64,000 nt of DNA, from the IMG/VR virus record IMGVR_UViG_3300045988_016718; one strand, written 5' to 3'. Below the pieces are notes generated by a model. The model did no database searches. It saw only the letters and a program-made list of their open reading frames with translations, and was not told the origin of the DNA. A program made the position numbers and the translations under genes. Below, one piece after another: positions 55,676 to 55,823 of the stretch. The stretch is from a virus. Each line of letters opens with the position of its first letter. The first letter of the stretch is position 1.

Positions 55676-55823
55676 TGGGGATAATAGGATTTGAACCTAT
55701 GACCACGAGCTTAAAAGGCTGAAGTAACTCTATTTATCACTACTTGTTTAAAGAATACTATGGTAAAACAAGAGAACATTTAACAGAGTAAATACGTGCT
55801 CTACCTGACTGAGCTATATCCCC
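55676..55823 (-). tRNA. tRNA-Lys(UUU) gene interrupted by a 74-nt structured insert in the 5' strand of the anticodon stem
   Basis: Minus sense GGGGATA-TA-GCTC-AGTCAGGTA-GAGC-A-CG[74 nt]AGC-CTTTTAA-GCTCG-TGGTC-ATAGG-TTCAAAT-CCTAT-TATCCCC-A. Removing 55721-55794 gives a perfect 74-nt cloverleaf with anticodon stem CGAGC/GCTCG. Confidence 0.75.
55721..55794 (-). ncRNA. module copy M2 (insert within the tRNA-Lys anticodon stem)
   Basis: TATTT-ACTCTGTT-AAATGTTCT-[CTTGTTT-15 nt loop-AAACAAG]-TAGTGATA-AATAGAGT-TACTTC. Ha pairs with one G-U, which is valid only in the minus-sense RNA. Confidence 0.65.

What the first reader, a model, noticed from the sequence alone, without database searches (positions are those of the whole stretch)
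55676..55823. tRNA-Lys(UUU) split by a 74-nt structured insert inside the anticodon stem (between positions 28 and 29), not in the anticodon loop
Deleting 55721-55794 leaves a textbook 74-nt cloverleaf: GGGGATA acceptor, GCTC/GAGC D stem with GG in the loop, CGAGC/GCTCG anticodon stem, CTTTTAA loop and a TTCAAAT T-loop. With the insert present, the 5' strand of the anticodon stem is broken after CG. Known bacterial and phage tRNA introns are group I introns of roughly 200 nt or more in the anticodon loop. Archaeal and eukaryal introns are defined by a bulge-helix-bulge. This insert is too small for group I, and I could not draw a BHB at its junctions. So either a new excision/processing route exists, or the RNA keeps an extra arm and functions as a tRNA-like scaffold. 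tRNA-Lys(UUU) is also the classical target of anticodon nucleases (PrrC), which T4 counters with Pnk and Rnl1. This phage encodes a Pnk-kinase homolog and a 2H phosphoesterase.
Basis: partly seen in the sequence, partly recalled or inferred. Interest (0 to 1): 0.88.

Follow-up and report, generated by a model that had tools for sequence, protein, structure and literature searches.

The report
Ro60-linked RNA module inside tRNA-like genes
The 74-base "insert" in this phage tRNA-Lys gene is one of five copies of a conserved folded RNA module that always sits next to the phage's Ro60 (TROVE) gene, so the RNA is most likely a new kind of tRNA-shaped Y RNA and not a tRNA with a new type of intron.

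Summary
Removing 55721-55794 from 55676-55823 gives a perfect 74-nt tRNA-Lys(UUU). The insert is not unique. It is one of five copies of a two-helix RNA module (U-R-GUG / UGUUC-Y internal loop, then single-stranded UUACUUCA) packed into the 1-kb gap directly downstream of a Ro60/TROVE gene (56076-57485). Two copies sit inside tRNA-like genes, at anticodon stem 28/29 and in the D-loop. Three are free-standing circular permutations. In relatives a third form carries a whole tRNA-like domain in the module's loop, as in the known bacterial Y RNA YrlA. Covariation is very strong. Every model match above threshold in more than 100 contigs lies beside a TROVE gene on the same strand, down to 38% protein identity (cultured Xanthomonas phage Tabio) and in cultured crAss001. 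Host anticodon arms swap anticodons or are non-canonical. The unspliced RNA folds as tRNA plus an extra arm, with no bulge-helix-bulge, group I core or known ribozyme. Best reading (about 0.6): undescribed Ro60-associated Y-like RNAs with the module as a permanent protein-binding arm. Excision is not excluded and is testable in crAss001.

The parts
56076..57485 (-). Ro60 orthologue (TROVE + Ro60-type vWA domains), 469 aa, immediately upstream of the RNA array on the same strand
   Evidence: Pfam TROVE 49.6 bits (cut-off 23), vWA_Ro60 24.5 bits. 78% identical to crAss001 gp96 'TROVE domain-containing protein'. The only PDB sequence relatives are phage phiLo Ro60, 9KOP/9L5Y, E 1e-14.
55919..56000 (-). 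Module copy E (free-standing form): stem II open, stem I closed by a 32-nt loop containing a D-arm-like hairpin
   Evidence: Model R1, 52.7 bits, E 2e-12. Shares stem I with the tRNA-containing modules of L148/L154.
55831..55901 (-). Module copy C (free-standing form); ends 8 nt before the 5' end of tRNA-like host 1
   Evidence: Model R1, 55.6 bits, E 3e-13.
55795..55823 (-). tRNA-like host 1, 5' part (tRNA positions 1-28)
   Evidence: RF00005 48 bits over 55676-55823. The spliced sequence is called tRNA-Lys(UUU) by ARAGORN.
55721..55794 (-). Module copy B, the 74-nt 'insert' of the finding: UAUUU linker, stem I 3' strand, AAAUGUUCU, stem II hairpin, UAGUG, stem I 5' strand, UUACUUC
   Evidence: Model R2, 57 bits, E 9e-11 at 55720-55788. 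Stem II shows compensatory changes between orthologues: U-A, A-U, G-C.
55676..55720 (-). tRNA-like host 1, 3' part (positions 29-73, with CUUUUAA anticodon loop)
   Evidence: T-stem pair changes U-A, U.G, C-G among relatives.
55411..55675 (-). Variable spacer between the two hosts. Absent from L062/L090 and 75% identical in the closest relatives. Role unknown.
55276..55410 (-). tRNA-like host 2, with module copy A in the D-loop just before G18G19. 8-nt 'anticodon' loop CUUGUAAA and 3-bp D stem.
   Evidence: RF00005 40.8 bits. ARAGORN on the spliced forms gives tRNA-?(tgta).
55333..55384 (-). Module copy A (embedded form, core)
   Evidence: Model R2, 46.1 bits, E 3e-8.
55152..55270 (-). Module copy D (free-standing form, 69-nt loop with a conserved inner hairpin); starts 6 nt after host 2
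   Evidence: Model R1, 46.2 bits, E 2e-10. The loop hairpin covaries in L041/L090.

Best explanation
The 1-kb gap downstream of the phage Ro60 (TROVE) gene encodes an array of Y-RNA-like noncoding RNAs built from one conserved module. The module has two helices (stem II and stem I) that flank a conserved internal loop. In that loop a bulged U is followed by an R-Y pair, a G-C pair, U.U and G.U (5' U-R-G-U-G opposite 5' U-G-U-U-C-Y). Stem I is followed by an invariant single-stranded UUACUUCA. I infer that this module is the binding site for the phage Ro60 ring, playing the role that the bulged helix plays in animal and bacterial Y RNAs. Directly after the 8-mer the module is joined to a variable 'effector' part, either a simple loop or a tRNA-like body. 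The body is joined at its acceptor end (relatives L148/L147/L161), at its D-loop (host 2 here) or at anticodon-stem position 28/29 (host 1, the finding). On this reading the 74-nt segment is a permanent fifth arm of a tRNA-Lys-shaped RNA, is not removed, and the RNA is a tRNA mimic tethered to Ro60 early in infection. What the tRNA-like part recruits is inferred only; candidates are tRNA-binding enzymes, an exoribonuclease as in the Ro60-Y RNA-PNPase machine, or tRNA-targeting defence nucleases. Shown: the module family, its structure, its permutations and its strict linkage to TROVE. Inferred: Ro60 binding, absence of splicing, and function.
For: (1) Five copies lie in the window, all in the gap 55152-56000 on the TROVE strand, with no other credible match in 64 kb (R1: no other match up to E = 10; R2: five scattered matches of 11-16.5 bits, E >= 0.17, plus one weaker match spanning the junction of adjacent copies E and C). 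(2) In 55 TROVE loci, all 96 R1 and 137 R2 matches with E <= 0.001 are on the TROVE strand and downstream of the gene; none is upstream or on the other strand in 473 kb. (3) Linkage persists as TROVE diverges: 56-68% identity, MAG contigs binned to five phyla at 48-57%, and cultured Xanthomonas phage Tabio at 38%, 33 bits, E 6e-7, in the unannotated gap beside TROVE. (4) Covariation: 52 distinct copies are 97.4% paired against 63% in shuffles and 30-56% in slid controls. Stem II was not imposed by the search, yet shows all four Watson-Crick types. The pair U[A/G]GUG: UGUUC[U/C] is A-U in 44 copies and G-C in 8, with no exception. U.G pairs show RNA on this strand. Ten further divergent copies are 97.4% paired, with 14 of 16 pairs changed on both sides. 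(5) Free-standing and embedded copies are circular permutations that keep all conserved strings. (6) Relatives carry a full tRNA-like domain (RF00005 47.6-62.7 bits) in the module loop, with the 8-mer serving as acceptor strand. This is the YrlA layout. In L222 the module replaces the whole anticodon arm. (7) Known bacterial and phage Y RNAs lie within 4 kb of Ro60 on the same strand and contain tRNA-like domains whose orientation already differs between YrlA and Yrn1 (PMC4201824). Phage phiLo Ro60, the closest solved relative of this protein, binds two RNAs encoded next to its gene (PMC12135203). (8) Host anticodon arms do not behave like those of decoding tRNAs. One body carries UUU, GUG or GCU in close relatives; crAss001 has a 9-nt loop; host 2 has an 8-nt loop; other hosts have A33. 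(9) Both full-length RNAs fold at minimum free energy into acceptor, D and T arms plus the module arm.
Against: No experiment shows that Ro60 binds the module. The motifs known to bind Ro60 (GNCGAAN0-1G in bacteria, GGUCCGA bulged helix in animals) are absent. No Rfam Y RNA family matches. Host 1 in this window is a flawless tRNA-Lys once the insert is removed, with a continuous 5-bp anticodon stem and a canonical 7-nt loop, and its stems evolve by compensatory change. That is what one expects if a spliced, decoding tRNA were under selection. An arm emerging at 28/29 would probably clash with the ribosome, so if this RNA decodes, the arm must be removed. PhiLo and several jumbo phages with TROVE genes lack the module.
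Confidence: 0.6

Rival explanations
1. True intron. The module is excised from hosts 1 and 2 by an unknown endonuclease or ligase route, possibly using the phage 2H/CPDase-like enzyme and host RtcB, with Ro60 as chaperone. This yields a functional tRNA-Lys(UUU). It is the first reader's main idea.
For: Precise deletion restores a perfect cloverleaf. The 3' junction always falls right after UUACUUC(R) in different hosts, and site 28/29 recurs in Lys, His, Thr and other bodies. tRNA stems are maintained by compensatory change. A CPDase-like protein of the tRNA-ligase type is encoded 2.6 kb away.
Against: Three of the five copies here, and most copies elsewhere, are not inside any gene, so nothing is there to splice. 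The 5' junction is an unconserved linker of 4-15 nt. No bulge-helix-bulge, no group I core (RF00028 is detected by the same tool in L147, so the negative is meaningful) and no known ribozyme is present. Many hosts would still be non-canonical after excision, with 8- or 9-nt loops, A33, or a missing anticodon arm. No kinase, ligase or splicing endonuclease was found in the ORFs tested.
Confidence: 0.12
2. A new small self-cleaving ribozyme, or a nuclease-recognition element, that processes the polycistronic early transcript into individual small RNAs and tRNAs. The link to TROVE would then be only positional.
For: Circular permutation with conserved unpaired nucleotides is typical of small ribozymes. 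Copies flank tRNA-like genes at short distances, 8 nt before host 1 and 6 nt after host 2. Ribozymes next to phage tRNAs have precedent (theta ribozymes; from my own knowledge, not checked here).
Against: No match to any Rfam ribozyme at E <= 1 in either permutation. Ordinary tRNA genes seen elsewhere in the window and in the fetched flanks of related loci lack the module, e.g. tRNA-Arg at 60575-60647. A single cut inside hosts 1 and 2 would destroy them. Co-occurrence with TROVE across 38-97% protein identity, and on either side of the gene, is hard to explain by processing alone.
Confidence: 0.1
3. The module is a structured RNA that binds some partner other than Ro60, or is a cis-regulatory element of the TROVE operon, for example for stability or autoregulation. 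The tRNA chimeras would be by-products.
For: Its position varies, downstream in crAss-like phages and upstream in Tabio, L247, L249 and L270. The canonical Ro60-binding motif is absent.
Against: Up to six copies per locus, each with its own variable domain, look like separate RNAs and not like one UTR. Repeated fusion to tRNA-like domains parallels YrlA. If it autoregulates TROVE it would still be a Ro60 ligand.
Confidence: 0.1
4. A selfish miniature mobile element that has landed in tRNA genes and inactivated them, so the interrupted genes are pseudogenes.
For: Multiple copies and two different insertion sites. L136 is a chimera of host 1 (5' half) and host 2 (3' half) joined through one module, showing recombination between copies.
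Against: Copies are confined to one gap per genome and are never found elsewhere. Selection acts on RNA pairing, including G.U. The interrupted hosts are conserved with compensatory changes across genomes. The same sites are kept between phages whose TROVE proteins are only 67-78% identical.
Confidence: 0.05

Closest known systems
YrlA-type bacterial and phage Y RNAs (Chen et al. 2014, PMC4201824)
   Same: Encoded beside a Ro60/TROVE gene on the same strand. Modular: a conserved bulged helix plus a tRNA-like domain with D arm, T arm and acceptor stem. Several different RNAs per locus. The form seen in L148/L147/L161, with the tRNA-like domain in the loop of the stem, has the YrlA layout.
   Different: The conserved motif is U-R-GUG / UGUUC-Y plus UUACUUCA, not GNCGAAN0-1G. 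No Rfam match. [quoted passage not shown] The anticodon arm is kept. The attachment point varies (acceptor end, D-loop, 28/29, or replacing the anticodon arm). Up to six tandem copies occur per locus.
Yrl1/Yrl2 of Thermus phage phiLo with phage Ro60 (PMC12135203; PDB 9KOP, 9L5Y)
   Same: Phage-encoded Ro60 with partner RNAs encoded next to the gene. That protein is the closest solved relative of the window's TROVE protein.
   Different: The phiLo RNAs carry the CGAA motif in a stem-bulge-stem. The present module was not detected at the phiLo locus. The proteins are only about 24% identical.
Non-canonical archaeal tRNA introns (bulge-helix-bulge, at D-loop, anticodon stem and other sites) (from my own knowledge, not checked here)
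   Same: Short inserts at non-canonical tRNA positions whose removal restores a cloverleaf.
   Different: No bulge-helix-bulge can form; the junction is a three-way junction with 5-nt and 7-nt single strands. The same element also exists outside genes. This is a bacterial phage, and no splicing endonuclease was identified.
Group I introns in bacterial and phage tRNA genes
   Same: They interrupt tRNA genes in bacteria and phages.
   Different: Group I introns are about 200 nt or more, sit in the anticodon loop and match RF00028. This insert is 74 nt, sits in a stem and has no RF00028 match, although the same tool finds a group I intron in L147.
Circularly permuted small self-cleaving ribozymes (hammerhead, twister) and HDV-like theta ribozymes next to phage tRNAs (from my own knowledge, not checked here)
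   Same: Small size, conserved unpaired nucleotides, natural circular permutations, neighbourhood of phage tRNA genes.
   Different: No match to any of these families in either permutation. The tight link is to a Ro60 gene, not to tRNA genes in general.

Membership tests
Y RNA / YrlA (Ro60-associated ncRNA) | Encoded within about 4 kb of a Ro60/TROVE gene, on the same strand | tested here: met
   All five copies lie 76-924 nt downstream of the TROVE stop on the same strand. The same holds for all matches with E <= 0.001 in 55 loci and for those with E <= 0.1 in distant loci.
Y RNA / YrlA (Ro60-associated ncRNA) | Contains a tRNA-like domain (D arm, T arm, acceptor-like stem) | tested here: met
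   RF00005 48 and 40.8 bits for hosts 1 and 2. 47.6-62.7 bits for domains nested in the module loop in relatives.
Y RNA / YrlA (Ro60-associated ncRNA) | Ro60-binding motif GNCGAAN0-1G (bacteria) or GGUCCGA bulged helix (animals) near the 5' end | tested here: not met
   The conserved strings are U-R-GUG, UGUUC-Y and UUACUUCA. A bulged conserved helix is present, but with a different sequence. Motif definition from PMC4201824.
Y RNA / YrlA (Ro60-associated ncRNA) | RNA 5' and 3' ends pair to form the protein-binding stem | tested here: inconclusive
   Plausible for free-standing copies E, C and D, where stem II is open, but the transcript ends are unknown. Not the case for copies A and B, where stem II is capped and the ends would lie in the tRNA acceptor stem.
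Y RNA / YrlA (Ro60-associated ncRNA) | Match to a curated Y RNA covariance model | tested here: not met
   Nothing but tRNA matches at E <= 1 in 55000-61000 or in four related loci.
Y RNA / YrlA (Ro60-associated ncRNA) | Physically bound by Ro60 | not testable with these tools
   Needs RIP, EMSA or a structure with crAss001 gp96 or the window protein.
Group I tRNA intron | Group I catalytic core (RF00028), about 200 nt or more, located in the anticodon loop | tested here: not met
   74 nt, between positions 28 and 29, with no RF00028 match. Positive control: RF00028 scores 85.9 bits in L147.
Bulge-helix-bulge tRNA intron | Two 3-nt bulges separated by a 4-bp helix at the exon-intron junctions | tested here: not met
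   MFE and centroid folds give an 8-bp stem I flanked by single strands of 5 nt (UAUUU) and 7 nt (UUACUUC). In host 2 the junction lies in the D-loop.
Bulge-helix-bulge tRNA intron | Splicing endonuclease available (phage or host) | tested here: inconclusive
   No such Pfam domain in 30 ORFs tested between 39 and 64 kb. The rest of the genome and the host were not examined.
Known small self-cleaving ribozymes (hammerhead, twister, twister-sister, pistol, hatchet, hairpin, HDV-like) | Match to the family model | tested here: not met
   No match at E <= 1 for either permutation.
Known small self-cleaving ribozymes (hammerhead, twister, twister-sister, pistol, hatchet, hairpin, HDV-like) | Site-specific self-cleavage | not testable with these tools
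   Needs in vitro transcription and a cleavage assay.
Elongator tRNA-Lys(UUU) | Continuous cloverleaf with 7-nt anticodon loop, U33 and anticodon UUU | tested here: inconclusive
   Met only after computational removal of 74 nt. The gene as encoded is missed by ARAGORN.
Elongator tRNA-Lys(UUU) | Aminoacylated and used in translation | not testable with these tools
   Needs an acid gel or tRNA-seq. Sibling hosts with the same body carry other anticodons or abnormal loops.

The most novel reading that the evidence does not exclude
The module is a genuinely excised element. This would be a new tRNA-splicing route in a bacterial virus, acting at stem position 28/29 and in the D-loop. It would be recognised through the two-helix module with its UUACUUC 3' boundary, be assisted by the phage Ro60 ring and healed by 2H/CPDase-type enzymes. 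It would deliver a phage tRNA-Lys(UUU) that replaces host tRNA-Lys destroyed by anticodon nucleases.
Probability: 0.1. Interest if true: 0.9.

Novelty: new variant of a known kind. Interest (0 to 1): 0.62.

Why it matters
Ro60 and its Y RNAs are a long-standing puzzle, and the function of the tRNA-like domain in bacterial Y RNAs is unknown. This locus gives a previously unannotated set of candidate Ro60 partner RNAs, undescribed in the literature available here, in crAss-like phages, the most abundant viruses of the human gut. The set is present in the cultured crAss001, where the TROVE gene is an early gene. The RNAs have a new conserved motif, and the same module is joined to tRNA bodies in at least three topologies. 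That natural series of permutations shows which parts matter and gives direct handles for binding, structural and genetic experiments. It also explains why tRNA scanners miss or mis-call these genes, and it warns against reading every interrupted phage tRNA as an intron. The recurrence of the tRNA-Lys(UUU) anticodon loop on several of these scaffolds makes a role in tRNA-targeted phage-host conflict worth testing.

Tried and rejected
1. A loose DNA pattern scan of viral contigs returned 120 loci, of which only 3 had both helices. I replaced it with protein-anchored locus retrieval.
2. Running ARAGORN on all possible excision boundaries was too permissive to define junctions, so I read the hosts directly.
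3. I looked for a universal pairing partner of UUACUUCA: a pseudoknot with UAGUG, pairing with the 5' linker, or pairing with AUGAA in the loop. The registers are inconsistent between copies. It pairs as an acceptor strand only in the nested-tRNA form, so I treat it as a recognition sequence.
4. I noted a resemblance between UGGUG-UAGG and the animal UGGUCCGAAGG Ro-binding strand. It is too weak to count as evidence.
5. The canonical Y RNA motif (CGAA) in the 265-nt spacer is not conserved in L041.
7. No module was found at the TROVE loci of phiLo, CcrColossus, RsoM2USA, RHph_TM39 or Mvi-JY20.
8. No Pnk kinase or RNA ligase was found among 30 ORFs. NCBIfam gave nothing for the TROVE or 2H proteins.
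9. A SNORD47 match (22.9 bits against a gathering score of 50) is a chance match.

Full report
OBSERVATION. The window holds a tRNA match at exactly 55676-55823, but on the minus strand (RF00005, 48 bits, with an 87-nt gap in the anticodon arm). ARAGORN does not call it. Removing 55721-55794 gives a 74-nt sequence that ARAGORN calls tRNA-Lys(UUU), with every stem perfect. It is not an assembly artefact, because the same interrupted gene is present in independent metagenomic contigs and in the cultured phage crAss001.

THE INSERT IS ONE MEMBER OF A REPEAT FAMILY. A second over-long tRNA match lies 265 nt downstream (55276-55410, minus, 40.8 bits), with a roughly 60-nt insert in the D-loop just before G18G19. 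The two inserts are homologous. Three further homologous copies lie outside any tRNA: E (55919-56000), C (55831-55901, ending 8 nt before host 1) and D (55152-55270, starting 6 nt after host 2).

All copies share the same parts in the same cyclic order: stem II 5' strand, U-R-G-U-G, 2-4 nt, stem I 5' strand (about 8 bp), UUACUUCA, then stem I 3' strand, N2-4-UGUUC-Y, stem II 3' strand. In E, C and D stem II is open and stem I is closed by a loop. In the two embedded copies stem II is capped by a hairpin and stem I opens into the tRNA. The embedded and free-standing copies are thus circular permutations of one another. Two covariance models, one per permutation, find exactly these five copies and no other credible match in the 64-kb window. 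R1 finds nothing else up to E = 10; R2's other matches score 11-16.5 bits with E >= 0.17, apart from one 25.7-bit match that spans the junction of the adjacent copies E and C.

THE MODULE IS A REAL STRUCTURED RNA. I put 52 distinct copies into one frame. Of all base-pair cells, 97.4% are standard pairs, against 63% in column shuffles and 30-56% when partners are slid by 1-3 columns. My search had required stem I, but not stem II. Stem II nevertheless shows all four Watson-Crick types at most positions. An unforeseen pair emerged: the second base of U[A/G]GUG and the last base of UGUUC[U/C] are A-U in 44 copies and G-C in 8, with no exception. This extends stem II past a bulged U with R-Y, G-C, U.U and G.U. 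Frequent U.G and G.U pairs indicate that selection acts on RNA of this strand. Ten divergent copies from other lineages, which were not used to build the model, are also 97.4% paired. Fourteen of their 16 pairs are changed on both sides, and no shuffle reaches any of the five measures. That alignment is model-fitted, which favours the structure somewhat.

THE GENOMIC CONTEXT IS A Ro60 GENE. The ORF immediately upstream on the same strand (56076-57485) has TROVE and Ro60-type vWA domains. It is 78% identical to crAss001 gp96, annotated 'TROVE domain-containing protein'. Its only sequence relatives among solved structures are the Ro60 of Thermus phage phiLo, alone and bound to a Y-like RNA (9KOP, 9L5Y).

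Ro60 proteins bind Y RNAs. In bacteria and phages, Y RNA genes lie within 4 kb of the Ro60 gene on the same strand, and at least one per species has a tRNA-like domain (PMC4201824). PhiLo Ro60 binds two RNAs encoded next to its gene (PMC12135203).

In 55 related TROVE loci, all 96 R1 matches and all 137 R2 matches with E <= 0.001 are on the TROVE strand and downstream of the gene. None lies upstream or on the other strand in 473 kb. The linkage survives strong divergence:
- It holds at 56-68% protein identity, including GC-rich contigs in which every stem base has changed but U-G-GUG, UUACUUC and UGUUCC remain.
- It holds in MAG contigs binned to Bacteroidota, Cytophagales, Moraxella, Neisseriaceae and Parcubacteria, at 48-57% identity.
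- It holds in the cultured Xanthomonas phage Tabio at 38% identity, where a 33-bit copy lies in the unannotated gap just upstream of TROVE.
- PhiLo and several jumbo phages lack it, so it belongs to one TROVE subfamily.

A THIRD TOPOLOGY LINKS IT TO YrlA. In L148, L142, L152, L154, L147 and L161, the first module after the TROVE stop carries a complete tRNA-like domain in its terminal loop (RF00005 47.6-62.7 bits). The invariant 8-mer supplies the 5' strand of the acceptor stem. That is the YrlA layout, a protein-binding stem with a tRNA-like domain at its tip. Window copy E occupies the same position and shares stem I with these modules, but it retains only a D-arm-like hairpin. In L222 the module replaces the whole anticodon arm; in L228 it is again at 28/29; in L215 and L228 it is in the D-loop. 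In every case the variable domain begins right after UUACUUC(R). Chen et al. already noted that the orientation of the tRNA-like arms relative to the Ro60-binding module differs between YrlA and Yrn1, and they expected further variants.

DO THE HOSTS BEHAVE LIKE DECODING tRNAs? Only partly. Host 1 is maintained as a tRNA fold: a T-stem pair changes U-A, U.G, C-G among close relatives. The anticodon arms, however, are unstable or abnormal:
- One body carries UUU, GUG or GCU in L145, L148 and L154.
- The crAss001 counterpart has a 9-nt loop.
- Host 2 has an 8-nt loop here, and CAGUAAA (A33), UUAGGGA or UUUGGGU in relatives.
- L136 is a chimera of host 1 (5' half) and host 2 (3' half) joined through one module.

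The CUUUUAA loop of tRNA-Lys recurs on several scaffolds (window B, L145, L148/L152/L154/L147, L266). This may be meaningful but remains unexplained. Both unspliced RNAs fold at minimum free energy into acceptor, D and T arms plus the module as an extra arm. For host 1 the centroid keeps the lower anticodon stem and its 7-nt loop. No bulge-helix-bulge forms.

WHAT IT IS NOT. Nothing but tRNA matches Rfam at E <= 1 in either permutation. The same tool finds a group I intron and a tmRNA in related loci, so the negatives are meaningful. No splicing endonuclease, Pnk-type kinase or RNA ligase appeared among 30 ORFs between 39 and 64 kb. The only RNA-repair-like gene is a CPDase-type 2H protein at 60088-60552.

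MOST LIKELY MECHANISM (confidence about 0.6). The array encodes Y-RNA-like RNAs. The module is the Ro60-binding handle: a conserved bulged helix plus a single-stranded 8-mer. The tRNA-like body is the effector domain, and the 74-nt segment is a permanent arm. Three things are shown: the family, its structure and its linkage to TROVE. Three are inferred: Ro60 binding, lack of excision and function. The main rival is true excision (0.12), kept alive by the flawless tRNA-Lys that deletion produces. The other rivals are a new ribozyme or processing signal (0.10), a ligand for another partner or a cis-regulator (0.10), and a selfish insertion (0.05).

NOVELTY. In the literature available here the crAss001 TROVE gene is noted only as an early gene and 'possible ribonucleoprotein component' (PMC8375218, PMC10136315). 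No paper links Ro60 or Y RNA with crAss-like phages, and the crAss001 record leaves the 900-nt gap unannotated. The kind of RNA (a Ro60-adjacent tRNA-like ncRNA) is known. The motif, the side-arm topology inside complete cloverleaves and the tandem arrays are new. I therefore rate it a new variant of a known kind.

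Noticed in passing
window 55276-55410 (-): A second interrupted tRNA-like gene with the module in the D-loop. 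After removal it has an 8-nt anticodon loop (CUUGUAAA) and a 3-bp D stem, so it is unlikely to be a normal decoder.
   Followed up: yes
window 55411-55675 (-): A 265-nt spacer between the two hosts. It is absent from L062/L090, and in the closest relatives it is only 75% identical while the flanking hosts are about 97% identical. It has no Rfam match. Its predicted fold is extensive (-59.8 kcal/mol), but I did not test that against shuffles.
   Followed up: partly
window 60088-60552 (-): A 154-aa ORF matching the phosphodiesterase (CPD, 2H) domain of fungal tRNA ligase (34.7 bits, cut-off 23). It lies next to an ordinary tRNA-Arg(CCU) at 60575-60647. No partner kinase or ligase was found nearby.
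   Followed up: partly
L122 (= L041 contig) 2672-2880 and L169/L090, between modules E and C: A further ~200-nt tRNA-like element ending in GGGUUCGAGUCCC..CCACA (T-arm plus acceptor 3' strand) with a long internal insert. The window lacks it, and Rfam does not call it.
   Followed up: no
L136 ~5060-5240: A chimeric gene: the 5' half of host 1 and the 3' half of host 2 joined through a single module. This implies homologous recombination between module copies, or a mis-assembly. The acceptor strands no longer pair.
   Followed up: partly
L154 2751-3156 (+): A full-length tmRNA (RF00023, 90 bits) encoded by a crAss-like contig about 850 nt upstream of its TROVE gene.
   Followed up: no
L147 6-253 (+): A group I intron (RF00028, 86 bits) at the edge of a related contig. 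It served as a positive control for the intron search.
   Followed up: no
L286 2504-2569 (Xanthomonas phage Tabio, LR743528 38168-38233): A module copy in a 670-nt unannotated gap upstream of an ORF annotated 'hypothetical protein' that is in fact a TROVE/Ro60 homologue. Related Xanthomonas and Xylella phages probably share it.
   Followed up: partly
L272/L273 2670-2765 (Moraxella-binned MAG contigs): A module whose loop contains a T-arm-like hairpin (UUAGG-UUCGACU-CCUAA) but no full tRNA. It looks like an intermediate state between the simple and the tRNA-bearing forms.
   Followed up: no
window 49674-50792 (-) and 52411-53202 (-): An adenylosuccinate synthetase homologue (114 bits) and an SPFH/Band-7 protein (66 bits) in the same gene block, as in crAss001.
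   Followed up: no
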